Shown here in pieces: positions 14,401-45,259 of a DNA stretch of 64,000 nucleotides (position 1 is the first letter of the stretch; every line of letters begins with the position of its first letter). Both the position numbers and the translations under genes were made by a program. The notes beneath the pieces are model-generated. The model saw only the letters and a list, made by a program, of their open reading frames with translations, was not told the origin of the DNA and made no database searches. Source of the DNA: Saccostrea cucullata (taxonomy: Eukaryota); NCBI RefSeq assembly GCF_032062105.1, contig NW_026926606.1:62001-126000 (forward strand). Direction: 5' to 3'.

Positions 14401-17400
14401 CTCCCTTCAAAAATAATACAATAAACATAACGAAATAGAAAGTATTGATGAAGCATGCTGTTAAATGCACATGTCACTACAAGTATTTTAAGTTTCATTG
14501 TCATTTAACCCCCCACCCAAACCCCCTACACACACCACTAAAACTAGAAATCTGGTTACTTGTACTCTTCTTTAACTTGCCCATAAATAATCCCAATATA
14601 TACATTCTTTAAATTAAATAATCTTATTCATTAATAAAGAAAAATAATTATGGGAATATCATAATCAATAGCTCTGATTTTAGTCTAGACGCAATGGTAC
14701 CAAAGAAGGTTAGGAAAAAATATTTCTCCAAATAAAAAGATTGACCCCCCCCCCTACACAGTGTGACATTCCAGGCATTAACAGTGTATTCATAATACAA
14801 GAATATATAACATGCAGAGTCTTACAGCTGCTTAGTATGGAAGTAGGCGGGACTAGGGTGTCATTTTGTAAGGACGTAATATTTGTGACCTCTGTTGTCA
14901 CATCCTTCAAGGTCGTGACCCCCGGAACTATGGTCGTCTGGGCAGTAGTGCTAGCTGCAAGCAAGAAATTTTTTAAGCAAGGAATTTCAGGTGAAGAAAA
15001 ATGAATACTTTTCTACATACTCTAAAAATATTTGGCTAAAAAAAATCCTTGAAGAACAAATAAAGAAGGCAAAGTAAAGTTTAAAAAAAATTAAAATAAA
15101 GACAGGTGCCCAGTGCCCAGGAGCTCTGAATACTGTTGATATAAGTATCTGATATATTTACAAGGTTTGTGCCTTTGGAACTTGAAGACATAAAATAAAA
15201 GAAAACAAGGGAAGTAACCACGGGAAGTAGCTCTTGTTGCACTAGTTTTTCTGATACATTGATATTGAATATACTTACAAGTCTTGGAATATACTGGAAC
15301 ATATGTTTTGTTTCCACATAATTCTGAAATTAAAATTAAAAAGAAGATAAGAAAGATAAATCTTTACATTACAATTCCAGTCAGACATACAGACAGACAG
15401 ACAGACAGCTGGACAACTAGATGTTCCCATGTTGAATGAAAATATGACATGCTATGTCAGTTTGATGAAGAAACTTTACATGATTATAGATTTACAGTAA
15501 ATAACAGAAGTGCCAGGGACAGAAACATTAACTTCATAACTCCTTATATCTGTAACTGTTTAGTGTTCAATATATTTTAAAGTCAAAGGGAATCAAAATC
15601 CCCTTTCTCTTTAATAGCATCAATTCTTTATTGGTATATTAAACATGTTTGCTATTAGTGTGTTTTACTTTATTATCATGTAATGAAATACATTTTAGAA
15701 ATGAATATGATATTTTTATTTCCTCCCATTTTTATCATGGAAAAAAGTGAATTAACTTCAACAATAAAAGGGAAGAAATGGAGTTCAGAGAACTCTGATG
15801 TAATATGTATGGCTGCTACTGACAAGGCAGCCAATACTCCGCTTGTGAATTCTGTGTCTTTTTGCCAGGATACACATTGTGATGATGTAAACACTATTCT
15901 GACTTATGCTAATTATTATTTTTTTTAAGTGTGGAGATCTGATCAGTCATTCACCATTCCCTACAAACACACAGCTAGAGTAATCAAACCAAGGAGGCAC
16001 TGAACTTATATATATACACTAACATTAGCAGCACAAAACACTGCAGCAAAAAACAACTTATCTAGAACATAGAGAAATGTATACACGAAGAAAGAACACA
16101 GTTTCCTCTTTGCAATTTGCTTTGTCTCTCAAGCAAGATAATTAAAATTCATGGTATGTGGAATGTAGCGGATGAAAAAAATTTAAGCAATAAATTGAAA
16201 AATAATATCAAGTATTTACTACATGTAAGATATATAAAGAAGGCAAAAAAAAAAAAGAAACTTAACCTTTAAAACAGTCATAAATTTTACAATCCAATAC
16301 CCTAAAGCTTACCACAGTTTGGCTGCATTATCTCCCCTCAGTCAAATCTCAAATTAGATCTACAAATGTACATGCACCCTGAGGGGACCCAGTACAAATA
16401 TTTACACGATTTCTCTGTCTGCTACAGCGGGCAATGATGAATGTCAATTGTCATTTTATAAATCAGCATACCTCTGCTGCCTTGCACAGGTGAGGATATT
16501 CTCCTAAATGACAAAGTTTGACATTCAAACATGCAGGAGAGAAAAGGTTTTCTGGTTTAAAATGGCAATGTGTATCTGTTTGTTTTGGTTTGGGCTTACA
16601 ACAGATTTTTTATGACTTTTGTGACATGACCAGAGAGAACATGTAGGCCAGTATTCCTGACCTGTATCAAACAAGAATGCTGAATCTTTTCATGTACATG
16701 GGGCATAAAGGAAAATTAATAGTGAATGACTTTATAATTTTTTTTTCTTTTTTGCTTGTCAAAAAAAATTTTTTGTATGACATCTGTTTAAGTTGAATGA
16801 TGTAGATACCCCATCCCCCACCTGTGCTGTAAATTTTACAATTTACAGATATACTGTGAATACTTGTGATCTAAAAGTTGAGGCTAAGTACATAAAGGAG
16901 ATGATTTTTTAATCTTGCAATCATTGCATTTAATATATTAAGTTAGTTGTTTATTTTCTTTTCTAGCATCATAGCAATTGTCATGTCCAACATTGTAAGT
17001 GTAAGCAATGTGTTCATGTGAAACATTGATTTACATAATACCATTTCTAATTAAAGTTTCTTTGAGATAAATTCTAAATTCACCTTCTCTTACATTATCA
17101 TGATTATAGGCATGACTAAAACTGAAAAAGAGTATGAAGGCCACATGAAGCATGTGTTAAGAATGGAAAAATGGACCCACTGGCTTGGAATATGTTAAAA
17201 TAAAGCATCTCTTAGACAGTCTACTATATGTTTAAATAAAATAAGTAACATTTTTTTACAACTTCAAAAGTTCAGAGGATGAAGTACACATGCTCTACTG
17301 TTTATTAATCAGTTAATAGGCATGGATAAATTTTATCATTCTGATTCATTTAATCTGATCCAATATCGGATTATCCATCTACTGTAAAATGCTAATGAGC

Positions 17401-19349: not shown

Positions 19350-20854
19350 TGTTGTTTTTATTCAGTTTGTTCTCACGCTCTTCTTATTCTGTAGAACAAA
19401 GACAAAAGTTATCAAAGTTTAATGATAATTACAATAATGAATATTACAAATAAATACACCTAAAAAGTAAAATTGAATTTCAATAATTATTCAAGAATAT
19501 CAAGATATAAACATGATAAATGATAAACATTTATTAAAAATATTTTATTTTAAAAATAAGTCAGACGCTCTATTTTCACTTGTGAAAGGGTCTTTCTCTC
19601 TCTTGTCTATAAACAACTGACAAGCCCTAGTATGCTGGCCAAAGCCTGTCCACTTCTCTAAAGAGAATAATATATATGTACATGTTAAGTATAGGGGGAA
19701 ATACCATTTCACATTTCAATTGATCCTTCCTTCTGAATAAATATAGTAAAGCTAACCTGATAAGTCTGTACTTTTTAAACTATGATGTGTCATGATTATC
19801 GCGTGCTACTCACACAAAACTACTACAGTACATATAACACGTGTGCTGATATTGTCAAATGACATCATTGAGTGACCATGTTTAAAAAATTGTGGCAGGA
19901 ACAAAAAAAATAATTGATTAAAATCCTTATAATAAAAAGTTCTCTTTTGGAGTTAAAAAAAAACATTCGGCGATTTTAGTAAGGTTGTTATTGTTGATGA
20001 TCATGAAGAACGGAAATGGAATGTTGCAGGATTGGTCCTGTGCACGATCATACAGAAATCTAGTTCTCCAAAGTTGGAGATCTCGATAAACAATTAAACT
20101 TTCAATCAATTAGTTATTAAACCAGACAACATGAAAATGAAACCTTACCTGTTCATTTTACTTTCTTTTTGACGACGACAGATTAAAACCAGGAAGTTTA
20201 CATAGTACGGGATGGGAGTGACTAACTTCCTGCTTCAATATCGATAGACATTTATTATCCGGAATACCGTTATCGTATAAACAGTTGCGCCTATCTATTG
20301 TTACTTTACCAAAACATAAACAACTACAATTGGTAATTGGAAACCCGTATGGGTTTGTCACCATCTGACTTGTGTAGAATCTACCCAGGATTGGAGTCAC
20401 CGTGAGTGATAGGTACCGTACTATGGCCTGTATGTAAATGGTGTATTTTCATTATTACATGATTGATGAGTCGCCCGCGGCAAGTACGTTGGTGAATTTA
20501 CTGACCAGAAACAGAATACATTTGGGATTTCAAACAATAATATATATATTTTTTTATAATATTGACATATTTAGAGGGGCTATGTTACTGTGTATCCTGA
20601 GAGTCTAGAGATGCTTTTCTTAGATTGGCATTTGGCAGAAATCTAGGGGCACTTGACATTGTCATTCATTTGATGAATCAGGTTCCTGTGAAATAGGAAA
20701 TTGAAATATTTTCCCTGTATATACAGCTATACGAGTTATTTGGTACAAAATGTTACATTTAATTTTTTAAATACCATCCCTCCATGCCTTATTGAATACG
20801 TTATTTGTGTGCATTTTAATGGAACCCCCCCCCCCCCTAAAAAAAAAAAAAAAG

Positions 20855-25789: not shown

Positions 25790-26110
25790 GTCTCAAAATC
25801 CATAAATTTTGCCAGTGTACATGAAAATGATGTTCCAAAGTCATGACAACTGACAAATTTGATCCTTGTAATTTTTTTGGCGGTGAAGATGAAAATGACA
25901 TGTTCCAATAACAATGTCATAACTTTTAAAAATTTGATTTTTCTAATTTTTGATTGTGTACGAGAAAAAGACACGCTCCAATAATGTCATAAGAATTGAC
26001 AAATTTTGCCTGTGTACATGAAAATGACGTGTTCATAATAATGTCATAACAACTGACAACTTTGATCTTAGTCAGCTTGTGTCCCTGTCTCGTAATGACT
26101 TCCGACAAAT
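25790..26110. repeat. Degenerate ~45-65-bp tandem repeats in the MIS18BP1 3'UTR
   Basis: Recurrent TGTACATGAAAATGA and AATGTCATAACAACTGACAAATTT blocks just downstream of the stop codon. Confidence 0.6.
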
Positions 26111-26148: not shown

Positions 26149-29100
26149 TCAGTTTTCTTCTTCCTCGGAGAAATAATAATCGGACTCCTCCTCCGAGTTG
26201 TCATGGTTACTGTCAGACCCACAATCCTCCATGAACAAACTCTGCAGATCGTCACTTTTACTGAAGAGTTTTTTGTTTGGTACGGGAACTTTATCCTTGG
26301 CCTGTGACAATGTAATAAACGTAAAAGAAGACGTTCACTTTTTAATCACAGAATTTTTTTGAACAAGTATTCAAGACTTTCATTTGATAGCTTAAGAAAT
26401 AAGAGGCACAAGAGCCACAATGCTCACCTGAGTAAGTTAACACTTTTATCTGTGTACAAAGATCATGACTTGAACTAAATACAGACACTTGTTTAATTGT
26501 TTTGTTATTTATAGTCTTTTCAAGAAAATACAACACAACTGTTTTTTCAGTACCTGAACTCTTAAGAGGAAACTTTGATACACAAACTGAAAGCACTAGA
26601 TCTCTACTTTATATTGAAGTTTACAGTGGGACATATAGTGTGTTAGTGAATGAATATCTTTATCTATAGGGCCATTTTAAGAATAAAGTGAACCTAGCTC
26701 TTTCAATCAGAAAGGTCACTTTACTTCTTTGGCTTTGGAGAGAAAGACTCAGGAGATCAATATTTAATTAATGATACATTACATAACCTACCGAATTTTT
26801 GGCTGTTTTGGGCTTGGTTTTGTTCACCAGTTTACGGCGCTGGATGTTCATCTTGTGCATGTACTGATCAGCTTCTTTTCTGAAAAATTCATTACTTTTA
26901 AAATACAGATAGTGTACATATATTAACATGTCTCGGTATCTATCATTTTCTCTGTCTGAGATCAATACCACTTGCCATGAGTCCTTATAACCCTAAATCA
27001 ACCTACACTGAAGTCCACAATTGTTAAATATATTTTAACATCAATATCTCAAATCCTTGAGTTTCTTGAAATTTTTCTTGACTTCAATGTCTCGGGATGA
27101 GTGACTTCTGACTTGTTGATCTGTCAGTGTCTCAGAATGGAGAATAACTGACCTGTTAATCTGTGAGTCTATGCCAGCCAGGCCTGAGGAGGGGGTTTTC
27201 TTTGTGGAGATGGGGTCCATGTTTATTCGAGTCATCGGGGTGAAGACCTTGTTCATCATATGGGGGTTCCTCTTACTGAGCTCAGTGAAGACGTCATCTT
27301 CATCAGAGAGGCGGGGCATCTAGAAAAACAAGAGAGAGGGGTTAATTTATATGATTTATATCATTTTATTTGGTGAAATAGTATTTCTTCATGTACAGAG
27401 AAGATTAAAGGTCATGGATTTGTTGAGATATTTTGTTGGAATACCTTTTTCTCACTTAACCAATTTTATTAACCTTCTCCTGGTGCCCATATGGTGTGTT
27501 GTCTACCTTTGAGAGGTGCCAATATGGAGTTTTGTTAAGATTCAAGTGATACTGATATTGTGTTATTTATCTTAAAGTGGTGCTGATAAGGTGTGGTACC
27601 AGTATGGCATGCTATTTACCTTTGAGTGGTGCCCATATAGTGTGTTGTCTACCTTTGAGAGGTGCCGGTATGATGTGTTATTAACCTTTGAGTGGTGCTG
27701 GTATGGCGTGTAGTTTACCTTTGAAGGGTGCTGGTATGGTGTGTTATTTACCTTTGAGTGGTGCCGGTATGGTGTGTTGTCTACATTTAAGTGGTGCTGG
27801 TATGGTGTGTTGTTTACCTTTGAGTGGTACCGGTTTGGTGTGTTATTTACCTTTGAGTGGTGCCAGTATGGTGTGTATATAACCTTTGAATGGTGCCAGT
27901 ATGGGGTTTGTTTACCTATGAGTGGTGCTGGTATGGCACGTTATTAATCTTTGAGTGGTGCCGCTATGGTGTGTTGTTTACCTTTAAGTGGTGCTGATAT
28001 GGTGTGTTGTTTACCTTTGAGTGGTGCCAGTGTGATGTGTGGTTTACCTTTGAGCAGTTCCAATATGGTGTGTTGTTTACCTTTGAGTGGTGTTGATATG
28101 TTGTAGTTTACCGTTGAGTGGTGCTGGTATGGCTTGGTTAACATGTGAGTGGTGCCGGTTTGGTGTGTGGTTAAACCATTGAGTGGTGCTGGTATGGCAT
28201 GGTTTACCTTTGAGTGGTGCCAGTATGTTGTGGTTTACTGTTAAGTGGTGCTGGTATGGCGTGGTTTACCTTTGAGGGGTGCCGATATGGTATGTGGTTT
28301 ACCATTGAGTGGTGCCAGTGTGGTATGGTATTTACCTTTTGAGTGGTGTGATTATGGCGTGTGTTTACCTTTCAGTAGTGCAGGTATGGCGTGTTTATTT
28401 ACCTTTGAGTGGTGCCGGTATAGCTTTTAATTTACCTTTGAGTGGTGTCGGTGTGGCGTTTGGTTTACCTTTGAGTGGTGTCGATGTGGTGTGTGGTTTA
28501 CCTTTGAGTGGGTGTCAGTATGGCATGCGGTTTACCTTTGAGTGGTGCCAATATGGTGTGTGGTTTACCTTTGAGTGGTGCCAGTATGGTGTGTTGTTAA
28601 CCTTTGAGTGGTGCCAGTATGGCGTGTGGTTTACCTTTGAGTGGTGCTGGTATGGCGTGTTATGTACCTTTGAGTGGTGCCGGTTTTGTATCATTCACCT
28701 ATGAGTGGTGTCGGTATGGTGTGGGGTTTACCTTTGAGTGGTGCCTGTATGGTGTGGTTTACTTTTGAGTGGTGCCGGTATAGCCTGTTGTTTACCTTTG
28801 AGTGGTGCTGGTATGGTTTGTTATTAACCTTTGAGTGGTCCTGGTATTGCGTGTGGTTTACCTTTGAGTGGTGCCGGTATGGTGTCCCATCAAACAGATC
28901 CTCCTGGTACACTTTATTGGACTGATCCACCAGTTCTCTCAGCTGCTGTTTCCTCTTCAGAGTTCCTCTCTTTGCTGTTAGACTGACCTGTTGTTCTGCT
29001 GTCTCTGTATTAAAGTAAACATTTATCTTACATATGTCCTTGATAATACATGCTGAAAAAGTTAAGCTAAATTGTATCGACAATGCTTTATATGACCAAA

Positions 29101-32100
29101 CACTTCCACTCTTAATTACTTATAATTCCAATCTTAATTTTATTTATTGATTCCTGTGTTTTGATTGGACAAACAAATTCAAGAAAAAGTTTACACATTG
29201 ATGAATTTTTCAATCAGAACTACTTTCTTGACCGAGCTTCTAGGCTGTTGTAAAAACAATGAAAACAGATACTTCTTGTCCGTTTTAGCTAAATTGTGAT
29301 TACAAGAAACTTGAAATAAGAAAAAGCAAAACAGGAGATAAACAGGACTGACAGACGGGAATATTAGTTTATGTCACTGTTGGATCTCAAGAGTGAATTT
29401 TAAAAAATCGCTGATCATGCTGTCATTTTCTCAACATTCAATATCAGCTCAGCTGGTATCGTTGTGATAGGGAAAAGAAACGTACCTCAGACTCTTGCCT
29501 TATCAGCATTTAAAATTCATATATTTACATCCTCAAATCCCATATTCTCCCTAAATCTTTGAACGAACCAGAGCAAATCAAGGACGTCGTCGGTCTGCAA
29601 CTTTCGCTATGAGTATGGTTGTTAATGTCAACATGACCATGGTTAAGGACAAATTTGTTCTGGAGAATACGCGTTTTTATGATATTTGTTGACTTAAACA
29701 ACATTCAATGAGTTTTTCTAAGTTTATTTATTGATTGTTTTGACAATTTAAGTTGGATTTTTTCGATATTCATTTTGTATACGTTTCTTTGCGGCATAAA
29801 GTATTCCTTCGCCGTACAAAATAACGGATTTTCTGGCGGCCTCAAAGATAAATAATTAAAAAATTTGAAATTGGAATTATAAGAATAAAACAATCTTTTT
29901 TCAGAATTTATCGATGTGTAAACTCTGCCTTTTTACTCACAAACTTAACATAAAAGTGCTTTGCACTTTTATTCAGTTTGTGAGTAAAAAGGCAGAGATT
30001 ATACATCGATAAATTCTGAAAAAAAGAACGTTTAATCCTAAAAATCACTTGGTCTATGCTTGAAAGTTCTATAGTTTACCCCCCCCCCCTTTGTTTATGA
30101 AAACTTTACCGATATATTCTAAATACACCTATGTAAATGTATGTATAAGCAAGAGGAACTGAACATAGATGAAGATTGCTTGATTTCTGCTCCTTTTTGG
30201 CTTCTGTGAATGCTGTTATGGACCCTTAGACCTTTTTAACTAACCTTTTGGTTTGGGGGGTCTGCCCCGTTTGCCTGTCTTTTTACTGGGCATCTCTTTG
30301 TAGAAATATTCCTGACATTCCTCTAGGGTTTTAGTCTTTACATGGTTCACAACCTTGCTCCAGAATTGCGGGTCACACTGGTGTAATTGCTTTGTTATTC
30401 TACACAAAAAAACATTATCTACAGCAATGGGGCAATTTTCAAGAGCATTTCAATTTTTCAATTTCAGCAAAAAACTCTTTAATTAGCATTAAAGTTTTTT
30501 TAAAAAAATAAATTAAGTATTCACACACTGCTTCCTTTTAACAAACTGCTGTTAAAAACTTAATGTATTACACTTCTCACCAAAGGGAGGGAATCCTGGA
30601 TCACTTACAGATTAAGTCTGGTGACCTCGTCCTTCCTCCACACCGATTCTTCCTTGTTCTTTTCCTCCAGCTGATTTTCTTTTCCTTCTTTTTTTGTCGC
30701 CCTGGGTTTTGATACAGACCTTTCCAGTTTATTTTGGTCACTCCTCCTCATTTTTTCCTCCTGTTTGTTATTTTGTGATTCCTCCCTCCCTTTCTCTTTA
30801 TTTAGGTCACTCCTCCTCTTTTTTTTCTCCTGTATATTATTTTTTGACTCCTCACTCCCTTTCCCTTTATTAAGGTCACTTTTCCTCACTTTTTCCTCCT
30901 GTTTATTGTTTTGCAACTCCTTTTCCTTCCCTTTTTCTTTGGATCCTTTTTTCTGTTTCCCATCCTTTATACTTTCAGCTTGTTTCTGAGATTTTGACTT
31001 GGAAGTTGCTCCGTTCTTGGACTGATTTGTCTTACCATTGGATTCACTATCAGAACTACCAGACCTCCTGTGGTTGGTTTTATTGGATTTGCTGCCAACC
31101 TTTTTTTCACTACCATTTTTATCAGAAGTTTTGTTCTTAACATGTTCCCTCGAAGTTTTAGAAATACTACTAGAATTTAATGACACATTTTTTCTGAAAT
31201 AGGTTGATCTTGACTGAAAACAAAAAGGTATTTGAGCAATTCATTATTAAATGCTTTTGATAAGAAAAAACAAAAAAGGAAAAAACATATATGCATGAAA
31301 CACTGATGTCCCCATATGGCATAGGCCTGGTCAAAACTATAATTGTGTGAATATAGATGAAAATTTGACAATTAGATTATATACAGCAGAATTAAACAGT
31401 ATCTGTGTTTTGAAGTTTCTGACCTTGTAGAAGTCTGTCATGTCCTTAGAAACACTCTCAGCAAACTGTGTCCTGTGTCGGAGGATGTAGGAGTTGGTCT
31501 CGGGGTCAACAGTGACTGACTGACCAGCGTACCAGCCCACCACAGGTTTGACAGCTCGTCCACTTCTGGTCGTCTGTACGGAGTCTAGCTTAATCACCTT
31601 ACCATCAGGTGTACACACTGTAACGCAGAGGTCAAATATCAAACACAGAGGTCAAAACAAGGTCAAATCACATTACTGTCAGGTGTACACACTGTAACAC
31701 AGAGGTTAAATATCAAACACAGAGGTCAAAACAAGGTCAAATCACTTTACCGTCAGGTGTACACACTGTAACACAAAGGTCAAAACAATGTCATATCACT
31801 TTACCGTCAGGCGCACACATTGTAACACAGAGGTCAGATCAAGGTCAAATCACCTTACCGTCAGGAGTACACACTGTAACACAGAAGTCAAAACAAGGTC
31901 AAATAACCGTACTGTCAGTAGTACACACTGTAACACAGAGGTCAAATCACCTTACTGTCAGGTGTACACACTGTAACATTGGGAAAAAAAATCTGCATTG
32001 GACAAATTTTACTGCACAGTCTGCACCTTCTACTAATTAGTGTACATATTACACATAATCTATGCCATTTATAAACAATACACACCCTCTGTGACTTTTC

Positions 32101-35100
32101 CACTGGGAACTGTAGCCTTGACCTCTTTCTTCTGCTTCTTTTTAACCTGTTCCACTTTCCTGAAATCCAAACAAACTAAAATTAATCAGTTTAATTAATT
32201 TCCTGCCCACAAATCATCAGAAGTACAACTAAATAGATTGTTAGCACGCACCCGGTGAATCGTAAACAACAACAATAACAGAGCTTGTGCCCTGTTCACA
32301 TACACTGTGCACGTTTCATTCTTACAATACTAGTACACTAGCTACGTGTGTAACTTAATTAGTCTTGGTTCTGACATTTACAATAGTACTAGGGCTGGGC
32401 AATAATATCGATATTTAAATATATAGCAATACAATAACAAACTAGAACTGTACACATGGGTTTAACACAGTAGGTGCCAATTCAGAAATATTTTATGGAT
32501 CTAGTAAGAGGTGTTCACTATTGTCTAATAAAGTGCCCCGCCACAGCATGATACGCCCATCAATATCGAACACATAAATTGGTTAGGGTCAAGAAAATCA
32601 AGTAACCTTGATTAACAGATTGACACAGATTTCAATGATCTAATTTCCATTTCTTATCATGTTTAAAATATTGTACATACATCTCTAAGAGACTTACAGT
32701 GTAGGGATTAATTAAAACAAATAAGACATCATATAATTCTAAACTGGCTGTGTTAGAGCTTAACAAATATCCATCTGCAGCTTTAAATTGTTCATTGCAT
32801 ATTTTATAAAATAATGGAAATGCTACAGTCTAATAAAAAAAATCAAAAATTAATTTTTCTTTAGACTATAAAATTCTAAGTGAGACATGACTGCAATTTG
32901 TTGCAAATATATAAAAATTGAAAATGTAATTTTTTTTTTCAATGAACACATGTATAATTAATTTTAATTATATTATACAATACTAATTCAGTTTTAATCA
33001 TACACTAAAACATCAGTTTGTTTTAATTACATTACACCAATTGAAAGATCTTTATCTGAACTACAGCCATCAAGAACTCTTAATTAACACAAGCAACTAT
33101 AAGGCCATTTCTTTTTGCCCAACTCCCAAGAGATGAATTCAGATAATACTGCATGATGCTCTTGCCAGTTAACTCCCGACAATGAACTCATTTATTTCTC
33201 TCTAATTTGACATGCACATTTCTGCTATCAAAAATTCTCCTTGACCAGTGCTTGATAATTATGCCCCTGGGACAAACTGAATTCCTCTCAAATCATTAAC
33301 ATTTGTTACAGAATTTGCCTTAAAGTATATGATAAAAAATAAGTTTTTACTTAATTTAGCATTTTTTAATAAGGATACAACTATATTTTTACATTTTTTA
33401 GGATTATGAAATTTAAAATTTTAAACACTTAGTTTTTTTTAAAAAATCACTTAAATTAAAGGTCACAGTGACCTTGAAATAGGTCGGGACACACCGTCTA
33501 CCCAAGATGCATAAATTGTCCAAGTTTGATGATTTTAACATAGTTTTCTAGTTATGAGCCAAAAAAAAACACAAAATAAAAAACAAAAAACGCCTGTAAA
33601 ATGCAGAAAAATCATCCAATCATGATGAAAATCCCAGGTGCACACCTTCATATGGTGAATAATAAGTGTATAAATTTTAAGACAAATCCATCCAATAGTT
33701 TCTGTCGGACAAAATCTTGTCTACAGACAGACGGACAGACGGACAGACAGACGGACATGGTGATTCCAATATACCCCCCTAAACTTCGTTTGCGGGGGTA
33801 TAAAAATATTATATAAGAGGATTATTTTCGTAGATTTCCTTTGCTGAAAGGACGTCACGTGACATTCCTCCTTTTGTGATAACGACGGGAAAGCGCGTTG
33901 GCGGAAAATGATAACGCACAACACAGCGTTCGGTTGCACTGAAGTTATGTAAAACGTGACGTCATAGTATGAGAAGTGTGTTTTTAACCATTGTGAAGTA
34001 ATGACAGCCAAGTCTGTTTAGTTAGGACTGTGTCAGTGCATTCACTTTGAGTGATTAAATAATATAACTATTATGGACTTCAGTGATTATAAGGATTCAT
34101 GGCAATTGATATTGACCTCAGACACAGAAAATGATAGCGACCTCGCAGGCTCGGTCACTATCACTTTCTGTGTCTTCGGTCAATATCAATTGCCATGAGT
34201 CCTTATAACCACATATTGACCTACACTGAAGTCCATAATTGTATAATATCATATCGCAATACGATTTTGTAATATCGATATATTAAAATATGCTAAGATA
34301 AGGAATTTTGTCATTAAATATAAAAATGGACTTATGAAAGTTTGTTATTAAGCCAAACAGTAAGACAGAAGTTGTTTTGTGGGAGTTTTTCAGAGCATAT
34401 CTTAAATGAAAACAACATTGTTATTTTTGCCTTGGTTACTTATCATGTTATGTACATTTTGCATGTAAATTAAAGTAAATAAAGTAAGAAAATGCAATTT
34501 TTATGACATTGAAAATATTGCAATACATATCGCAATACAGTTAAAAATATCGCAATATATCGCAATACAAAATCTCGGGCCAATACCCAGCCCTAAATAG
34601 TACACCACCTGGGTATCTATTTTAGCCTCAGCTCTAACATTTCTTACTTTATAGATGACTGCTCCTTCACTTGACTGACTTTCTCCTTTGACTTAACTGT
34701 CCTGACTTTTGTGACTGGCTTTTTGGGGACATCCTTCTTTAATTTCTCCTTTCTCTTTGTTGTTTTGGCTACGTCTTTTGATTTTTGATTTTCCTCCTCT
34801 GAGTTGAGAGTTTTCTCTGAGGGTTTTAATGTTTCATCCAATAAACTCACATTGTCCTCAACATCATCATCGACTGCAGCATCTACGTCGTGAAAATGAT
34901 AAATCAATCAAACAGAAAACAGTAATTACCAGTTTTATGATAATCTCAATTATTCAACAATATTACAAGGAAACTTGTCTATAATCAAGATGCTGTGTAT
35001 TCCAAAATTTTGTCTAATAAGATTTATTTATCTGATCAGATATTTCCACAATCAAAAAACGAAATTAAGAATGTAAAATAAAGTACTGTAAACCAAGTAT

Positions 35101-38100
35101 TATACGCGTGCGATAAATATCATCGAGTTCCGCGACAATTAATTTTCGTGATAGAGGAAACATTATTTACAAATACTTAGCAAAATAATTTGTTCTAGAA
35201 GCAGTTGAAGTTTTATTACAAACATTCAGAAAAAATATATAAACGAATGGAAAATCTAAAAATATTTGTCTAAAACGATTAAAATGTCAATAAATATTTC
35301 AGCTTATGTTATTATTAATCATTTATTGTCACAGACAGATAAAATTTAATTATGGCCTAGTCCTGCTCCGTCCCAACCATTTATAATAATTGCCCTTTGG
35401 CTATGTAGGTCTTGTAAAGCATCAATTACCCAATTAGCACGAGGTACTTTTACACTTGAAAGTTTTAAACCAACTTAAATCTCTTCGATTTTTTAAAACA
35501 ATTTTCATTCGAGCGTCGTGAATAATGCGTATATAAGAAGTATACTCATGGTAACATTTTACCTTCTTTAGGTGCGGATATAAGATTTTAAATAGATGTA
35601 ATCCACAGAATGTCTTAAATAATACATAAGCAGTACTCACGGTAGCATTTTACCTAGTTTATGAGCGGATATGAAATTTTGATGCAAAATATAAAATACT
35701 TGTGGAAATAAAAAAAAGATGACCACTTGTTTGCAGAAATAAATCGTCGCGGATTAGTTCTCCAGCGGTCAGTCGCGAATAAAAAATGACGCATATAATA
35801 ATTGGTTTACAGTAAATAAAAATGAAATGTAAAATTGATACCATTTTGTGATAGGTTAACTTTAGACTTTGACGATCCTCTGAAATATAAAGAAGAAATT
35901 TATTATATGTGTCTTTAAAATGCAAATTTTGAGTTTCAGTGGCTAAAACTTTTAAAAGAGCATCAAGGCTTTATTGAAAAGATATGTTTCATGAAATTCA
36001 AAGATATCAATTAAATGCATGTATTTCAAACCAAACATTTCATCATATGAAGAACGGTGGAGTCATTGATTTTCCTAAGTCCAAGGGGGCATAACTCTAT
36101 CCAAATTGACTTGATCATACCCAAAACAAAACTTGGCCTAGATATTCTCATGATAAATCTGTACACCAAATTTCATTTCAACATTGCAACCTCCATTCTT
36201 TGAAGAAGGGGGGGAAAATTAGATAATTACCCAGAGAAGAACATGTCCATCACCTCTCTCCAGTGAACAGGGAAACCAGACAGAAATTCTCTTATTGTTT
36301 GATCATCAAATCCTACAATGAAACACAACCAAATCATTCAAACCCTACAATACAACACAATCAAATCATTGTTTTGAATTTCACTGTAAGATTTAAAATT
36401 AGAGTGGATTGGTAAATATTACACTGGATGGGTAAATGTTACAGTAGATGCCTAGATGGGTAATTACATACAATTTTGACCTAAATCTGACCTCCTGAGT
36501 GAGCGTCCTCGATTTCCATGTCTCCCATTAAGCGATACACCTTGCCGCTGACAGTAATGACCAGGTGAGATTCGAGCCTGTCCGATATCAGACTGGAATG
36601 CCAGTACGTGTCATCATCCTCTCTACAATCAACCAATAGGAAAACATTAAAACAGATTATAATTACAATAAACAAATGTAAGGTTGCCAGATATTCTATG
36701 ATAACACTAAATTCCATTTCACCATGGTCACTGGTATTCGTAAAAATATATATTTTTGATAAACAGAAAAAGTTCAGATAATTTTTGCTGATCAATAAGA
36801 GATAACCATATGAAACAATAAAATTAGCACTAAAAAAAGCCTGTAAATGTAGTACCCTCGATATCTTGAATCCTTGGATAACTCAATGTTTTTATTATTT
36901 TTTTCGATCCTATTAAGTTCAATATAATGAGGTTTGACTGTATATCCATGTAAATCTAAATACTTGGGACTAGAATAATATAAACAAATTTATCTGACTC
37001 AGGTATAGAAAATTTTCTAGAGAGGTACATGCAGTGACATACTTAAGCTTTCCTTCAACACAGGGACCTGAGTTATCCGGTAAAACTTTGATGATCCAAG
37101 AGTAAAGAGTCTGGGCTTCTGGGATAGAAGTCACCTGAAAAAGGGACTAAATCATCAGCAATGGAAAATATAAAGGTAATAACAGGTATACAGAAAAAAT
37201 TTTACTCTCCTCAGATAGGTAACTTCACAGTGAAAATGGTATTTAACTTAAAACATGATAAGCTCCGGCCTGTATAATAAGAGTTTTATGAATATCTTAC
37301 CTCACTCCCACAATTCCCTTTTAGACTACCTGAAACACAGATTACATAATAAGTGTATACACTTTAAATCGATAATTTATGATGGAGCTCATTTAAAAAT
37401 TAAAACTGAAACCATGCTAATTATCTTACTAGACTGTTCCTCCTCAGATCAATATCACAATTCAATCACCCTTTTTCTTATAAAATGGACACAAACCCTT
37501 AACAATCAGATTTAAAATTTTCATCTAAAAATCAATTTATAAGATTCTTCCTACACTTACTATTCTCTTTTTCATTGTTGCGCAAAGGATAGATATTTGA
37601 CGCCTCGGAAAAACTCTCGTTCTCATCCGACGTGGACATTACTTTATCATCCATGTTCTCGTGAATAACCCGCATCACCCCGGCCACTGGCTGCTGATGA
37701 GGGAGGGGGCTGTGAAAACCATTTCTAGGAACGTTGTTCTGTGGAAACCGGTTACAGCAAAAGCTGTCCTGACATAGATCCACACTACATGACTTTGTAC
37801 GCAGCTCATGTTGCTGGAAATTTCTCCATCCTCCATGGGAACTGAAGGAGTCTCTTAGATTTGTCTGATTTTGATAGCCGTGTTCTGATTGGTTGTGAAT
37901 CAGTATCGGCCTACACGATTGGCTCTGCAGCCTGTGTGTCTCTGTCGGGGGCCTCTGAAGGTGACATTGGGGTACAACTGATCTAACGGAGTGGTCACGG
38001 TTGCCATAGTAGCTGTAGGCGGGGGTACTGGTCAAAAAGGAACGTTGTTCTGGGTGAGGAAGATAAAACTCTGACTCTGTTGCATGAGATAGGGACAAAT

Positions 38101-39225
38101 AGCTCTCCTGTAAATGCATAAAAAAAATTAATAATGAAGTTTGAAAACGGAGGAGAATCATGCATTTTAACTCAACTGCTTGTACAGAAGTCTATCTCTT
38201 TCTGAATCAGTCTCACGTATTACAGCTTAGGAATTTCATGCATTATTTAATAAAAGTTTAGAAATCCATTTGAACATGGATTTTTTTTTTTGGATGTCAT
38301 TAGGCTATCATTAAAAATTTTTTGTTTGATGTACTCTGACCCACATGTTTCAAGGTGGGTAGGTACTAGGTAGGTAGGTATTTAATTTTTTTTTTTTTGC
38401 TTTGTATATATCTAATATAAAATTCGCAAACTCGGAGAGTCTTTAATGTTTTTGGAACACTTCTAGCATACCTGTCCCTGAAAATATGGCGCTAAAGTTT
38501 GTATGCTGACAAAGATTGATTCATCCAAACTTTTGTTTGAAAAACTTTCCTGTTCTTTATTAGCAAAAATTTCATAAACCAACCCAAAATGATTAAAACA
38601 GTTACATTCTCTGAGCTTTGAAATACTCCAACCCTAATGCTAACCCTAATCATATACATTTCTAAAACATTTTTTGTGACAAAATTTTATTCAAAATATA
38701 TCAAACATGTAGTTAAAAATGAAATAATCTATAGTTTTATATTTTGTATATTTTGTGTTAAATTATCTCAAAATAAAATATAATATTTACTGGAAGGTGA
38801 CACTAAACACAAAGTGAACTTTGAAAAGTCATAAAAGGGAAGGCAACAAAGATAATTTAACAGTTCGTGTCCTTCACAAACATAAACTTGAATGAAGTTC
38901 ATATACAACGAATATGAAAATAAACACGGCACATATTTTGTGAAGCACGGACACTGATTTTGTACTTTATTTTGAGAAGGTAAAAATGAGAATGTAACAG
39001 ATAGGTATATAAACTACATCAATAAAATAAATACGATTAGAAATATATGCCTGTATATTTATGAATGAAAATGTACAAAATTATAAACATGAATATAAAA
39101 AAGAGTGCATTTTTACGTGTTTACTTTTTTTTGTGTGTGTTTAAATTACAAACAGTCCCATAGGCTACCTCATTCTTCTGGTTTGTTTTGCACACTGTTA
39201 TTGTTTTAACTTTTACATCTTTCAT
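26149..39225 (-). CDS. MIS18BP1: Mis18-binding protein 1 (KNL2), CENP-A licensing factor
   Basis: 16 phase-consistent exons: 39225-39169, 38107-37561, 37329-37301, 37134-37043, 36622-36492, 36312-36231, 35879-35842, 34882-34648, 32159-32086, 31617-31424, 31213-30609, 30399-30245, 29004-28862, 27319-27153, 26879-26792, 26301-26149. SANTA domain (LYSWIIKV...CVEGKL...YWHSSLISDR...TVSGKVYRLMG...FLSGFPVHW); CENP-C-like motif (TRSGRAVKPVVGWYAGQ); SANT domain (WRKDEV...FWSKVVNHVKTKTLEECQEYF); conserved C-terminal blocks TAKRGTLKRKQQLRE...DLFDGTP and EEESDYYFSE, recognised from vertebrate M18BP1. Confidence 0.93.
27480..28885 (-). repeat. 33-bp minisatellite (~42 copies) built from the MIS18BP1 exon 13 splice-donor junction
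   Basis: The unit on the minus strand is approximately CCATACCGGCACCACTCAAAG|GTAAACCACACA, and the first copy is the true exon end (28862). The 11-aa periodicity is visible in overlapping ORFs. Confidence 0.92.
29885..30040. repeat. Fold-back palindrome (Crypton-like element end)
   Basis: TTTCAGAATTTATCGATGT...CTCTGCCTTTTTACTCACAAACT / AGTTTGTGAGTAAAAAGGCAGAG...ACATCGATAAATTCTGAAA. Confidence 0.7.
31590..31978 (-). repeat. 43-74-bp tandem repeat (7 copies) built from the MIS18BP1 exon 10 splice-acceptor junction
   Basis: GTACACACTGTAAC core at 31611, 31685, 31759, 31813, 31867, 31921, 31964; the last copy in the direction of transcription runs directly into exon 10. Confidence 0.9.
32439..33803. 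mobile_element. Non-autonomous Helentron (related to 17534-18610)
   Basis: AACTAGA start, (GACA/GACG)n, terminal hairpin ATACCCCCCTAAACTTCGTTTGCGGGGGTAT. Confidence 0.7.
33807..34245. mobile_element. Fold-back (Crypton-like) non-autonomous element
   Basis: Hairpin TTATGGACTTCAGTG..TTATAAGGATTCATGGCAATTGATATTGACC / GGTCAATATCAATTGCCATGAGTCCTTATAA..CACTGAAGTCCATAA; a half-copy lies at about 26930-27030. Confidence 0.65.
35084..35814. mobile_element. MITE with TA flanks
   Basis: TACTGTAAACCAA ... TTGGTTTACAGTA termini. Confidence 0.7.
36231..37134 (-). CDS. MIS18BP1: SANTA-domain exons of MIS18BP1
   Basis: Three exons encode the hallmark SANTA elements (W..K, VEG, WHSS.I..R, T.SG..Y.L.G, F..GFP..W). 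Confidence 0.92.
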
Positions 39226-40226
39226 ACTTTATGCCTGCATGATAATATATCGGCACAACACAAAAGAACAGTTTTTAAGTCACAAAAGGCACTTGTAAGC
39301 AAAAATTACATGAATTAGCTCAAAGTCAGGATTGGATAGGCATGACTTTGATAGGTCGGTCAGAGTACATGAAACAAATCATTTTTTATTGTTGACCTTT
39401 TTTTGCTGTTATAAGACTGAAAAACCCCAAAAATAAGAATCCAATAAGTTTCTTTCAATTTGGGATGTGGAAAGTTAAATAACACAAAAGAACATTGACA
39501 GGTGAGTTTTTTAACATATTGGAACTGGGCGATAAGTTGCATTATGATTAACACTTTAAGAACCAAGTCTCTCTAAAAAATTAAAAATACAAACGAGACT
39601 TACAATATTGTGAACTATATCATGTATATTTTCCATTACCTATGTTAACGTGGATATATATTAATGTTTGCAATACTTTTTAAAGGATGACATGGTCAAG
39701 GTAAAATAAAAAATGTGTGTGAAATATTTTATATCATTGCAAAAATAAGACAAACCATTTCTGTTATTTTGAAAACATAGTCCCTCTCGCGCGCTGATGT
39801 TGTTGATCGGCGTTAACCTTCTTTTTATGATTTGCTGTTGTAACAACCCCCTTTTCAAACGTTTGAAAGATTTTCACGTAGTTTTAGATAGCTTGTTCAA
39901 AAATTACATGAATAGAGATAGAAATTAATTTTATTTTGTTGAAATTAAAATTTTGACACCGAATTGTTATTATACTTATTGCATTAAGGCCCAGCTATTT
40001 GTAATTTCAAAACAAAGTTAGTACTTATTCAGAACATTTCAAGACAATACCTTAAGCCATTTTATGTATAAGCTATCAAATTATTCACATAAAAAAAACA
40101 ATATGGCTGCGCCCATGTCCACAACATTGACCGTGAAAAGTGGTTAACTTCATTATACCGTTCTGCAATGCAAATTCTTGGCAAATAGTGTTATCCTCCA
40201 ATTGTTATGTAAATTTGGGTTCAAAA
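39226..40226. promoter_or_regulatory. Putative bidirectional promoter shared by MIS18BP1 and NDUFAF5
   Basis: Divergent ATGs about 1 kb apart (39225 and 40227); a likely 5'UTR exon donor (GTAAGT on the minus strand) near 39603; YY1-like AATATGGCTGCGCCCAT at about 40100-40116. Confidence 0.6.
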
Positions 40227-43200
40227 ATGGCTAGAAACATCTTAAGTCAAGCAATATCTTACCTTGAAAAACACTTGTTTTTAAATACTTTGAAGAGGAA
40301 ACGCGAACTCACTGCACAAAGATGTTACACAAAACAGACCGAAAATATCATGAATGTATTTGACAGAAAAGCCAAACGGCTACAAAGAGATAGGTCTACA
40401 ATGATGCCAAATTTTGAGGATTCTCAGTTCTTAAAAGAAGAGGTTGGAATTATTTTGATGCCATATTTATTCACCAGACCGAATAATTCATTGAATCTAG
40501 ATTATAGCTCTATATATTTTAGAAGTTTCAGTAACATTGTTTATCAAATAAAACTTGAAGAATTGAACCACAGATGTGATTGACATTATGCTTGGTATGC
40601 ATATTTGTTTAGCCATTCCAGACCACATGCAGGGACTTGAGACAGTCTTAGCAAAATTGGGTAGTATATAGACTCTAGACTATATAGCCTCTACCCAACT
40701 TTTGCTAAAACTGTCTTAAGTCCCTGTGGCCAAGACTTGAAGAGATTCCCTCTTTACTAATTTGAAAGTCACAATGTAAAATCAATTTTATCTATTTTTT
40801 TTTTCGGTGTGACGCATCGATTTACCAAAATGAACCCAAATGGAAGTTAAAAGAACCCAAATGGACCCAAACTTTGGAAACTCAAATGTTTTTGACCCAA
40901 ATGGAAATCAAATGGAATATTAAATATGTATTATCGTATTTTGATACTTATCTAAATGATGAAAATAAATGAACTTACAGTTACAAATGGATTTTTTTAG
41001 CTTAAAAATCTGTAATATTGTATTTTGAAACATGAAGTTTTCATAGTATCCAATAAACCGGCAAAATTATTTGGGGGTAGGGGCAGGGGGTGGCATGGCC
41101 TCCACACCCCCCCCCCCTCCGTTCCTACGGCCATAAAAATATCAAATACATCAGTTTTGTATCAAGTATGTTCAAAAATAGTTACTGCAAATAGAATTAA
41201 ATCGCATTTTTGCAAATACAACTGAAGAAATAATGATGTTATAATATTCTCTATTTGTTATAATTTCATTATTCTCTATATTTTAGATAAGTAAAAACTT
41301 GAAATACGATATAGTATATATATTTTATATTCCATTTGGGTCCATTTGATTTCCATTTGGGTCCATTTGAGTTTCCATTTGGGTCCATTTGGGTTCCATT
41401 TGTGTCCATTTCGGTAAATCGACGCACCCTTAATTTTTGATTGTTCAGTGTGACATGCAATCATGCATGGACTCATTTGATTTTGCTGATTAGCAATTGA
41501 TAAATGCAAAGCTAACATTAAAATCAGAACAATCACCTGATAAAACTTTTTACATGTAGTTTTTCACAAAAATGTTTTTGTAGGAAATAGAGAAGTCTCA
41601 AGTATTTGACTATTCATATAGCTTTCAGTTTTCATTATTTGTACTTTTTTCACATGCTAAAAAATAACTCATTTGAGAAAAGTATGTAATAAAATAACTA
41701 AATCAAGCTATTCTGGCCCCAAGACCAGAAGACCATAAACTGAGAACAGACTTAAGTCAGAATTTAAAATCAACAGAAGTTTTGAAACAATTTTGATAGT
41801 GAAACAAAATTTTCCACATACCTATGAAATAGTATATTACACAAACCTGCAACATTTTATGAAGATATGTTACAAAGAATTGAATATTTTGTTTATGGTC
41901 TTGGGGCCTGAATAGCTTAATAAAGCGATATGTACACTGTACACAATAAAGCTGAACCACGCTATACAGCTTAAAATCAAGAGATTGTGCCAAACCTGTA
42001 GAAATGTTTATGAGTAACTAGTTACTTTTACATGTTTTAGAAACTGTGTAATAATATTTTGTCTTTCATCATTCAGATTGGGTACAGAACATATGATAGA
42101 CTTTTAGACATAAAAAGGTAAAAAACACATTATTAATCTCCTAGCTGTTAAAAGAACTTAAAGGCAAGAAAAAAAACCCAGCCAAATAAATTAAGACATT
42201 AAAAAAGACAAAAAGTGCCCCCAAAAGTTAAATAGATAACAATAAATACCTGTTATGATTTTTCTTCTTTGAATTGTAGAGAATTTGACATAGGAGTGGA
42301 TCTAGGTTCTGGACTTGGATATGTTTCCCGTCATGTTTTAAAAGATACCGTCAAATTTCTATATCAGTGTGAACTCTCAGAAAAATTACTGGTAACTTAA
42401 ATGCATATTATCTAATGCATACTCAATTGAAATGATTCACCTAATGAAGGAAACCATGCATTTTTTCCCATAATTATTTTTTATATACCGGGTAATCCAT
42501 TTGCAACTTATTTTGTATCTTAAAAACGAGAAATTCTTTTTCTATGTTAGTCACAATCAAGCACAGTTTATTAAATTTTATTTAGAGACAAGCACAGGTT
42601 TCACCAGAAGTTCCTACTCAAAAACTGATAGTTGATGAAGAATTTCTCCCATTTAAAGAGAATTCTTTGGATGTAATTGTGAGCAGTTTAAGGTGAGTAC
42701 TGATCGAAGTGTGGCCAGAAGTTGATAAGAGACAGTTATTTCTGTCAAGCTATAGCAAGGAAGAATATTCTCATCCTCATATGTAAAGTATCAGAATTTC
42801 TCTTTTCTGTGTTAAACCTTGCACTAAAAAAAAAAATATTCCACATGAAAAACAGTAAGTGGTCTTTATTTTTCTGTATTTGTAAGATGTTATTTTGTCT
42901 GCTGACAGCTTACACTGGGTCAATGATTTACCAGGGTGTTTCAAGGCTGTAAGTATTAAGTGTTTATGTACTAGTATGTGTATGAATAAAGTTCATTTTT
43001 GATTGATTATTAAATGAACATGTATCTTTAAACAATTTTTTTGAATTCCTTGGACAGAAAATGTACAAAAATTAATTATTGCAATATAAAACTTTTAAAG
43101 ACCAATGGAAGTTGATAATCTGCAAACTGAGATTAATATAGTGAGCAATACTACAGTAATCATGGTAATGAAATAGGCTTTTTTGTGCTTGACCATGTCC

Positions 43201-45050
43201 AGAAATGTCTAGAAAATGTTAACCATTACTGTCTCTTTGAACAGGCTCAGAAGGCTTTAAAACCGGACTGTCCATTTATTGGGAGTATGTTTGGTGGTGA
43301 CACGCTGTTTGAACTCAGGGTTTCTCTGCAGTTAGCAGAACAGGAAATACAGGGGGTAGGTACCAGGATAAACTGGTTCTCAACAATAAGGCAGTACACA
43401 GAACTCAATACTTTCATAAATTCAAAAAAAGAAAATGGTGAAGCATGAATGAAACTTAATTTTAATTCATACAAAGTCCATAGCATTATCCAAGCTCATT
43501 GAAAAATGAATGCAATTAAAGAAGACAAATCACTCCTGTACTTGTTTGATTGACAGGGGATTAGTCCACACATTTCACCTTTCACTGATGTCCGTGATCT
43601 AGGTAACCTATTAAACAGAGCAGGATTCACCATGTTAACTATTGTAAGTGTGCCAAATAAATCAAAGTACTGATAGTACTGAAGGGTAAAGTGAGAAGTT
43701 ATACAAATACTAAAAGATAGATCTAAAGCAGTATTCAGTTTGTTCACAAAAGGAGCATGCTTTAAAATTAAACAAGTGGCAATTGTATAAAACATAGCAT
43801 ATTTTCATGAATTAGGTTTTCTTGCTTTCATGTATCATACTTATAAAGAAGTGGTCAAACAAATACATGTATGTTATTATGAGTTCTAAGTTTTCCCTTT
43901 CATTTTCACAGGATATTGATGAAATAAAAACAACTTATGAGAACATGTTGTCCTTAATGCTGGATTTGAAAGGTATCAGAATCATGATCCAATAAATACT
44001 TCTGCTAAATTTATCTTAGTTATCAGTGGAATGCCTTTGGTAACATTAAAGTAATGATTTTATTTTAATATCAGGCATGGCAGAAAATAACTGTGTCTGG
44101 GAAAGGAGGCCCATGCTTTATCGTAAAACAATAGAATTAGCTGAGAAAAAATACAGAGGTAAAATTCTCGTTGTAAAAGCTCATCTTTTAGAATAGAAAC
44201 ATTGAGTAAAAATCTTGATTATGATAAGGTTTTCAAGTACATGTAATCCAGACTTTCTTTAAAAGAAATTTTTTAATCTTGTGAGAGTATATTAGTTAAT
44301 TATTAAAAAATTGTGTAAACACACCACAATTTCTCCCTCACACAATCTCTCTATCTCTGTCTCTTTATCTCTGATTTTTTTTTGTGACTGACTCCAATTA
44401 CATGTATATGGTAATTTTGTTGTAGAAATGTACAGCTCAGAGGAGGGACTGGAGGCTACCTTTCAGATTGTAAATTTCATTGGTTGGTCCCCGCATCCTT
44501 CTCAGGTATTTATATGATATTCCTTTATATTTCTAGTTATACAAAGTATCAGGTTGGGTCAGTTCCAGTCTTAGTTACACACAATTAAAACTATATTAAA
44601 ATCTATCAGAGAACACAATTTATCCTGAGTCTAACAGAGATCATCTTATAATACAGGCTCAGGCACTTATTGAGCCCAATGGAGCCAGACTTTTTTCCCC
44701 GCAATATTTTGAACTATTTGATGTGAAATGTAGTCATAATTCTCTGATAAAGAAATATTTAACAGGTTTTTAAAGTTTCAAACAGTAATTTTTGTAAAAT
44801 TTTTTGCCCACATGTTTTTAAGCTTTATTTATATATTTTCTACTCACATTTCTCCAGAATGTAGATCTGTTGCTGCACATGGTTCACAAAGCTAATTTCT
44901 TGTTTCGCCATTTTTCAGCCCAAACCATTACAAAGGGGATCAGCCCAGTTTTCTCTGAAGGATATTGATAAAATTGATGAGTTAACCAAGGAAATGGAAT
45001 CACAAACAGAGGATCTGGATACAGAATTAAACCCAAAGAAAGACAAATAA
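40227..45050 (+). CDS. NDUFAF5: Arginine-hydroxylase NDUFAF5, mitochondrial complex I assembly factor (SAM-methyltransferase fold)
   Basis: 11 exons: 40227-40442, 42077-42117, 42280-42391, 42586-42692, 42909-42948, 43245-43355, 43557-43643, 43912-43972, 44075-44158, 44426-44505, 44919-45050. Basic N-terminal mitochondrial-type presequence, then [111 protein letters not shown]. Confidence 0.96.
40622..40730. repeat. Short fold-back palindrome in NDUFAF5 intron 1
   Basis: CAGGGACTTGAGACAGTCTTAGCAAAATTGGGTAG / CTACCCAACTTTTGCTAAAACTGTCTTAAGTCCCTG. Confidence 0.65.
40806..41429. mobile_element. TIR element with subterminal CCCAAATGGA repeats
   Basis: GCATCGATTTACCAAAATG ... CATTTCGGTAAATCGACGC; oppositely oriented ACCCAAATGGA arrays at the two ends. 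Confidence 0.7.
41708..41917. mobile_element. Short MITE
   Basis: GCTATTCTGGCCCCAAGACCA ... TGGTCTTGGGGCCTGAATAGC. Confidence 0.6.
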
Positions 45051-45259
45051 CACAGTCAGGATAAATAACAAAGATAATGCAACCAGGACCATTAACAAAG
45101 ACAAAAAAATGTCAACAACAAACAAACAATAAGTGTATTATAATGCAATGTATATTTTATTTAAATTACTCAACCCAATAAATCTATGAAATAATATATT
45201 TAATCTGTTTATTTATTTTCTGATCTCTTGGAATGAAATAGCACTTGCTGTGGCCTTCA

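What the first reader, a model, noticed from the sequence alone, without database searches (positions are those of the whole stretch)
27480..36470. Repeated splice-junction-seeded tandem amplification across one gene
Seen: three unrelated repeat units in MIS18BP1 each straddle a real exon boundary (donor x~42 at 28862, acceptor x7 at 31617, acceptor x2 at 36312), like late, middle and early stages of one process. I saw none at the 20 junction ends of neighbouring NDUFAF5. Inference: a mutational mechanism targeted at splice junctions (for example R-loop or co-transcriptional breakage with slippage repair), or selective tolerance because junction-spanning duplications leave the mRNA intact. I do not know whether this has been described for bivalves.
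Basis: partly seen in the sequence, partly recalled or inferred. Interest (0 to 1): 0.7.

Follow-up and report, generated by a model that had tools for sequence, protein, structure and literature searches.

The report
Splice-site minisatellites enriched in oyster genes
Three short stretches that straddle real exon-intron borders of an oyster centromere gene have been copied head to tail into the introns, a repeat type already known from lancelets and the human F7 gene; in a sample of this genome such repeats are about three times commoner than chance, mostly at exon ends, likely because exon ends duplicate more often while splicing likely ignores the extra copies.

Summary
Observation confirmed. 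A 16-exon MIS18BP1 gene carries three unrelated, locus-specific arrays whose end unit spans a real junction: donor 28862 (33 bp x 42), acceptor 31617 (74/54 bp x 7), acceptor 36312 (32 bp x 2). These are 'mirage' minisatellites, known from amphioxus and human F7 intron 7; this scan has noted them before in annelids, urchins, a shark and a camelid. The excess shrinks to about 2x but survives near-junction, GC and transposon-mask controls. It is mainly at donors (23 against 5.4); acceptors (10) are not significant without one gene. Tolerance alone cannot give an excess, so a duplication bias at exon ends is likely. Its cause is untested. Breakpoints do not fall on the junction. 'Late, middle, early stages' is not supported: copy number is unrelated to age. 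The blank at NDUFAF5 is uninformative (0.3 expected). Known kind, ordinary locus, useful genome-level number.

The parts
26149..39758 (-). MIS18BP1/KNL2-like gene, 16 coding exons, 911 aa, 30 junction ends
   Evidence: open frame with 15 of 15 GT-AG introns; 8 of the 15 joints seen in the RNA joint table, the rest from frame and splice scores; SANTA and Myb domains
28862..29004 (-). Exon 13; its last 22-24 bases plus the first 9-11 intron bases are the unit of array 1; authentic donor after 28862
   Evidence: RNA contig piece 28862-29004 and joint 29004|30245; frame open into exon 14
27480..28885 (-). Array 1: donor-type mirage, 33 bp x 42, fills most of intron 13 (27320-28861). 37 of 40 scored decoys keep GT, 20 score at least as high as the real donor; first three decoys are in frame (+33, +66, +99)
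   Evidence: copies 86% like the exon-anchored unit, 79% like each other, 80% like their neighbour; CpG transitions 26/82 against 58/615 at other C/G
31424..31617 (-). Exon 10; its first 26 bases are in the unit of array 2; authentic acceptor at 31617
   Evidence: RNA joints 31617|32086 and 31213|31424
31592..31978 (-). Array 2: acceptor-type mirage, 7 copies, periods 74, 74, 54, 54, 54, 43, in intron 9; 5 of 6 decoys keep AG
   Evidence: single locus in the genome search
36231..36312 (-). Exon 6 (SANTA region); authentic acceptor at 36312
   Evidence: RNA joints 36311|36491 (cut +1) and 35879|36231
36302..36370 (-). Array 3: acceptor-type duplication, 32 bp x 2, decoy keeps AG, diverged (24/32 ungapped; TRF 86%)
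27105..27175 (-). Possible decayed fourth echo of the exon 14 donor (27153), offset about 41 bases
   Evidence: 16/22 match, p 0.0016 against 630 other introns, not significant after correction
36394..36450 (.). Purely intronic 20 bp x 2.9 array in intron 5; does not reach a junction (internal control)
   Evidence: donor lies at 36491
30719..30921 (-). In-frame 69 bp x 2.9 coding repeat inside exon 11
40350..45110 (+).

Best explanation
These are 'mirage' minisatellites: locally born tandem duplications of an exon-intron border that likely arise more often at exon ends than elsewhere in introns, likely amplify in bursts, decay like neutral DNA and are likely ignored by splicing, which uses the exon-anchored site. 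Steps: (1) a 25-105 bp tandem duplication forms with one breakpoint in the exon and one in the intron (shown by anatomy); for donors the unit is mostly exon plus a short intron head (median 66% exon; 25 of 31 have at most 26 intron bases, 17.5 expected). (2) Such events are 2-4 times more frequent than intronic ones (shown in a sample); the inferred cause is an elevated duplication rate in exon DNA, of which selection removes the wholly exonic cases and lets the straddling ones through. (3) The extra copies fall in the intron, so the mRNA is unchanged if the exon-anchored site wins (seen at low depth for arrays 2 and 3, inferred for array 1; matches the F7 first-donor rule). Upstream decoy acceptors are predicted to be riskier than downstream decoy donors, which would explain the donor excess (inferred). 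(4) Copy number changes by slippage or unequal exchange and differs between near-identical loci (shown); the exon-anchored unit stays close to the ancestral state (shown for array 1).
For: Enrichment: 33 of 76 arrays, 10.8 expected, p 3e-10; dyneins 12 vs 4.2, myosins 10 vs 3.3, kinesins 11 vs 2.7; 23 of 76 genes carry one. Rule fixed before myosins and kinesins were looked at. Against intron within 100 bases of a junction 33 of 52, 16.4 expected; GC-matched 33 vs 14.1, GC-matched with dispersed repeats masked 33 of 73 vs 17.3, p 5e-6. TRF-independent echo test: donors 28 of 385 vs 49 of 3465 pseudo-junctions. Straddlers are more, not less, homogeneous than intronic arrays (median 90.5 vs 83%), against a longer-visibility artefact. 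Exon-heavy donor units: 22 of 31 over half exon, Wilcoxon p 0.006. Neutral decay: 245 of 268 decoys keep GT/AG, variants per column 0.20 vs 0.24 elsewhere; CpG decay in array 1. Array states differ in 3 of 3 near-identical locus pairs inspected. RNA shows the exon-anchored acceptors. F7 rule: PMC1557585.
Against: No direct measure of duplication rate in exons. No link to methylation found: gene CpG o/e does not track straddler rate (rho -0.11, p 0.33), CpG in founding units 43 vs 32.8, p 0.06. No excess for periods 12-24 (3 vs 4.3). With dispersed transposon satellites counted the excess nearly vanishes (37 of 123 vs 29.7, p 0.06). Acceptor excess is weak (10 vs 5.4, p 0.04; 6 vs 4.7, p 0.33 without one gene; echo test 10 vs 6.4, p 0.12), which a plain exon-wide bias explains only with added selection. 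Acceptor units show no exon skew (n = 11). The period threshold was chosen after seeing the dynein set. Sample = three motor-protein families, junctions from my own spliced aligner, not checked by RNA. RNA comes from diverged individuals (exon pieces 94-100% identical) at low depth, may lack these arrays, and 54 joints were not shown.
Confidence: 0.5

Rival explanations
1. Splicing-coupled origin at the 5' splice site: co-transcriptional R-loops or spliceosome stalling break DNA just downstream of the donor (or the cleaved 5' exon primes DNA synthesis), and repair copies exon tail plus intron head.
For: Excess mainly at donors (23 vs 10, p 0.035); intron part of donor units mostly 8-26 bases whatever the period (25 of 31, 17.5 expected); clustering by gene (p 0.004).
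Against: Breakpoints never sit on the junction as a rule and range 2-69 bases into the intron; host donors are of ordinary strength (p 0.84); acceptor-type arrays exist, including two of three here; gene clustering tracks ordinary intronic array density (rho 0.29, p 0.01), pointing to regional repeat-proneness; the 26-base cut was chosen after seeing the data. No expression or R-loop data were available.
Confidence: 0.2
2. No mutational bias: retention and ascertainment. The exon-anchored unit cannot decay or be deleted, so it keeps re-seeding arrays, while intronic arrays decay, are deleted, or sit in young transposon DNA that dilutes the background.
For: Controls shrink the excess from 3x to about 1.9-2x; one locus pair shows a decayed echo in one copy and a fresh 16-copy array in the other; masking from 1.8 Mb catches only high-copy repeats.
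Against: Excess remains after every control (p at most 5e-6); straddlers are younger-looking than intronic arrays; retention should act alike on donors and acceptors.
Confidence: 0.22
3. The decoys are functional: donor arrays recruit U1 (splicing enhancement or protection from premature polyadenylation) or give in-frame alternative exon ends, and are favoured by selection.
For: Decoy dinucleotides mismatch less than other columns (4.3% vs 8.0%); first three decoys of array 1 keep the frame.
Against: Counted as distinct variants the difference disappears (0.20 vs 0.24); periods are not biased to multiples of 3 (11 of 44); arrays differ freely between near-identical loci; no decoy joint among those listed.
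Confidence: 0.05
4. Chance: three ordinary minisatellites that happen to touch junctions; tolerance only.
For: The gene was picked because it is rich; at the sample rate of 1.4% per end, three in one gene has P about 0.01, which many genes per genome will reach.
Against: The genome-level excess.
Confidence: 0.03

Closest known systems
Amphioxus 'mirage' minisatellites (Adh3, globins BflGb6/BflGb9, troponin C, PGBD5). Seen: passages of PMC3087553 and one passage of PMC3902484; the original paper (Canestro et al. 2002, NAR 30:2871) is not held
   Same: Tandem units spanning an exon-intron boundary; both 5' and 3' boundaries; 10-160 bp units; many but not all copies keep GT/AG; normal splicing; copy number differs between haplotypes; origin called unclear
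   Different: Here a bivalve; array 1 is longer (42 copies) and not locally homogenised; a measured excess over intronic background with donor bias, which those passages do not report
Human F7 intron 7 37-bp VNTR (Borensztajn et al. 2006, PMC1557585; abstract and discussion read)
   Same: First unit holds the exon-intron junction; downstream pseudo-donors are functional in principle but only the most upstream is used; geometry of array 1
   Different: 5-9 near-identical copies in one gene, donor only; here 42 diverged copies and acceptor-type arrays in the same gene; silence of decoys shown by mutagenesis there, only inferred here
Variable internal tandem repeats at exon-intron boundaries in human segmental duplications (PMC2812944; passages read) and intron gain by tandem duplication
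   Same: Tandem repeats at boundaries can duplicate splice sites
   Different: There they may create introns or alternative transcripts in young paralogues; here a single-copy gene with unchanged exon structure and no new intron seen

Membership tests
mirage minisatellite | Tandem array whose unit spans a real exon-intron boundary | tested here: met
mirage minisatellite | Copies duplicate the splice signal (many, not all, keep GT/AG) | tested here: met
   array 1: G 38/41, T 41/41; array 2: 5 of 6; array 3: 1 of 1
mirage minisatellite | Locus-specific unit, not a dispersed repeat | tested here: met
   arrays 1 and 2 match only this locus (the search skips very common words); array 3 not searched, but its unit contains exon sequence
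mirage minisatellite | Normal splicing at the exon-anchored site | tested here: inconclusive
mirage minisatellite | Length instability between alleles | tested here: inconclusive
   no second copy of this locus in the assembly; shown for other straddling arrays in 3 near-identical locus pairs, which may be alleles or recent paralogues
mirage minisatellite | Somatic instability | not testable with these tools
   needs small-pool PCR or long reads from several tissues
intron gain by tandem duplication | Duplicated segment is spliced out as a new intron between two copies | tested here: not met
   all copies lie inside existing introns; frame is complete without them
dispersed satellite / transposon-borne repeat | Unit recurs at many loci | tested here: not met
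   contrast the 146 and 166 bp arrays of the window

The most novel reading that the evidence does not exclude
Oyster genomes record a splicing-coupled mutational process: the 5' splice site itself (R-loop, stalled spliceosome or the free end of the cleaved 5' exon) seeds tandem duplications of exon tail plus about 10-25 intron bases, so that roughly 1 in 50 donors carries a decoy ladder. This would be a direct footprint of splicing on germline DNA and a genome-wide natural experiment in splice-site choice.
Probability: 0.15. Interest if true: 0.75.

Novelty: new member of a known kind. Interest (0 to 1): 0.38.

Why it matters
The locus itself is ordinary. What matters is the number: mirages were described gene by gene with origin unknown, and here they can be counted. 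About 1.4% of sampled junction ends carry one, and they make up over 40% of locus-specific intronic minisatellites. That makes the open question of their origin testable genome-wide, gives hundreds to thousands of natural tests of first-donor selection, and warns that decoy sites can mislead gene prediction and intron-spanning markers in oysters.

Tried and rejected
Search for a second allele of the locus in the assembly: none; the other 39 hits were an unrelated dispersed repeat in the intron part of the query. RNA validation of my aligner's junctions on a myosin locus was not obtained, so the sample junctions rest on protein alignment alone. The first duplicate-locus filter was faulty: shared satellites made it drop 19 extra loci; it gave 24 vs 9.2 and was replaced by a coding-identity filter. 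Rows dropped before the final count: 8 loci as near-duplicates or fragments, 1 intronless kinesin, 1 kinesin intron whose true acceptor lies beyond the fetched stretch, all introns failing the confidence filter (130 of 768 in dyneins), arrays with a hit elsewhere in the pooled loci, and pieces derived from a straddler in the same intron; 5 fetched dynein stretches (L140-L144) were not analysed. One array counted as intronic carries exon-start sequence and is probably a mirage, which is conservative. Methylation link: not found. Splice-site strength of hosts: ordinary. Frame-preserving periods: no bias. Microhomology at breakpoints was not properly measured (no clean empty alleles). Literature: 10 full-text searches found no bivalve case and no genome-wide enrichment test; the library lacks most subscription papers, and supplements (e.g. 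alignments in PMC3087553) were not opened. Other human cases that I recall (CBS intron 13, ABCA7, IFI6) come from no call.
Full report
Setting. The window comes from a 1.17-Gb fragmented animal assembly. I call it an oyster from its 146 and 166 bp satellites (recalled) and from earlier notes on the same genome. The minus strand carries a gene with SANTA and Myb domains, i.e. MIS18BP1/KNL2. Sixteen exons give an open 911-aa frame with 15 of 15 GT-AG introns; 8 of these joints appear in the RNA joint table.

The three arrays. TRF finds them at the stated places. Array 1 has a 33-bp unit made of the last 22-24 bases of exon 13 and the first 9-11 of intron 13; there are 41 copies besides the exon-anchored one. 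A transcript contig stops at 28862 and runs on elsewhere, and the frame continues at 27319, so the first donor is the real one. Array 2 has 7 copies of the intron 9 / exon 10 border, array 3 two copies of the intron 5 / exon 6 border; reads join at 31617 and 36312. Arrays 1 and 2 match nowhere else in the genome search. The reads come from diverged individuals at low depth, so rare use of decoys is not excluded.

Age and dynamics. Copies of array 1 are 86% like the exon-anchored unit, 79% like each other and 80% like their neighbours, and the array consensus differs from the exon-anchored unit at 1 of 33 positions. This fits a burst followed by mostly independent decay, with the exon copy held by selection. 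The single CpG shows 26 transitions in 82 against 58 in 615 at other C/G (p 3e-7), so the array is likely methylated in the germline. Array 2 copies next to or near the exon are 85-90% like the anchored unit, array 3 is 24/32. The three are thus of similar age and are not late, middle and early stages; over 44 sampled arrays copy number and identity are unrelated (rho 0.12).

Known kind. Tandem units spanning exon-intron boundaries are the amphioxus 'mirages' (PMC3087553 passages; PMC3902484 passage), at both 5' and 3' boundaries, with normal splicing and unclear origin. Human F7 intron 7 has the geometry of array 1, and only its most upstream donor is used (PMC1557585 abstract and discussion). 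Ten searches found no bivalve case and no enrichment test. Earlier notes of this scan report the same class in annelids, urchins, a shark and a camelid, one with a donor-only excess; I had reached the mirage reading before opening them.

Enrichment test. I located dynein heavy chain, myosin and kinesin genes in the genome, fetched them, and called introns with a profile-to-genome spliced aligner written here, keeping those stable across runs and well aligned on both sides. The counting rule (period at least 25, TRF score at least 60, no hit elsewhere in the pooled loci, at least 5 bases on the exon side, null = uniform placement of the unit over pre-expansion introns and straddling positions) was written down after the dynein set and before the other two. 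Result for 76 genes and 1,144 introns: 33 of 76 arrays straddle, 10.8 expected, p 3e-10; dyneins 12 vs 4.2, myosins 10 vs 3.3, kinesins 11 vs 2.7. Without the five richest genes 21 vs 7.8. Against intron within 100 bases of a junction 33 of 52 vs 16.4. GC-matched with dispersed repeats masked 33 of 73 vs 17.3. A TRF-free echo test gives 28 of 385 donors against 49 of 3465 pseudo-junctions, and 10 of 385 acceptors against 58 of 3465. Against: no excess for periods 12-24 (3 vs 4.3); near none if transposon satellites are counted (37 of 123 vs 29.7), though these arrive by insertion and cannot hold exon sequence; the acceptor excess is not significant without one gene.

Tolerance can explain survival but not an excess over intron background, so a bias in origin or retention is needed. 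The junction sits anywhere in the unit, so it is not a precise breakpoint. Donor units are mostly exon (median 66%, p 0.006), acceptor units are not (n = 11). Decoys keep GT/AG in 245 of 268 cases, with variant counts like other columns, so they are neither purged nor clearly kept. Straddlers cluster by gene (p 0.004), together with ordinary intronic arrays (rho 0.29), not with CpG depletion. MIS18BP1 with 3 of 30 ends is rich (about 0.4 expected) but was picked for that; NDUFAF5 with 0 of 20 says nothing. In three near-identical locus pairs the same junction shows different array states, for example decayed echoes in one and 16 fresh copies in the other.

Mechanism. Most likely (0.5): duplications form more often in or at the end of exons, selection removes wholly exonic ones and part of the acceptor-type ones, slippage or unequal exchange amplifies the rest, and splicing takes the exon-anchored site. 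The excess and the anatomy are shown; the exon-biased rate and the selective filter are inferred. Rivals: retention and background dilution (0.22), a splicing-coupled break at the donor (0.2), function (0.05), chance (0.03).

Verdict. Real, known kind, new host group as far as my searches reach, with a measured donor-biased excess from a limited sample. Interest 0.38.

Noticed in passing
window 31592-31978: The exon part of the array 2 unit contains a donor-like motif 15 bases after the acceptor, so several copies look like 15-base micro-exons; spacers of 28-59 bases are probably too short to splice, and no such joint is among those listed.
   Followed up: partly
window 27105-27175: Possible decayed fourth junction echo at the exon 14 donor; a weaker one at donor 32086 (15/22, p 0.01).
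   Followed up: partly
window 39756-40350: MIS18BP1 and the NDUFAF5-like gene lie head to head within about 600 bases; the first MIS18BP1 exon appears to end with the start codon.
   Followed up: partly
window 25800-26070: Degenerate repeats in the likely 3' untranslated region of MIS18BP1, below the TRF threshold.
   Followed up: no
window 32400-34600: Intron 8 holds nested dispersed repeats with high read depth from other loci; many reads skip 32441-34245, as for an element without this insertion.
   Followed up: no
window 14800-20170: Another minus-strand gene, first exon apparently near 20150-20170, with 146 bp satellite arrays in its introns.
   Followed up: no
window 40824-40871 and 41322-41415: The same 10/21 bp repeat in opposite orientations in intron 1 of the NDUFAF5-like gene, like the ends of a small inverted-repeat element.
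   Followed up: no
L073-L074 (G000:C3564) and L068-L072 (G000:C9535): Near-identical dynein loci: one has a 16-copy 29-bp acceptor mirage, the other only decayed echoes at the same junction.
   Followed up: yes
L081-L085 (G000:C12694): One dynein gene carries 5 straddling arrays in 52 confident introns, 4 of them acceptor-type; it drives much of the acceptor excess.
   Followed up: partly
L148, L171, L128-L129: Very young, long mirages (54 bp x 33 at 97%, 75 bp x 11 at 99%, 81 bp x 27 at 94%, 96 bp x 19 at 97%): good material for splice-site choice tests.
   Followed up: partly
L009, L015, L021, L048, L059: Several arrays outside the dynein genes also hold splice-like motifs and may be mirages of neighbouring genes; not annotated, not counted.
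   Followed up: no
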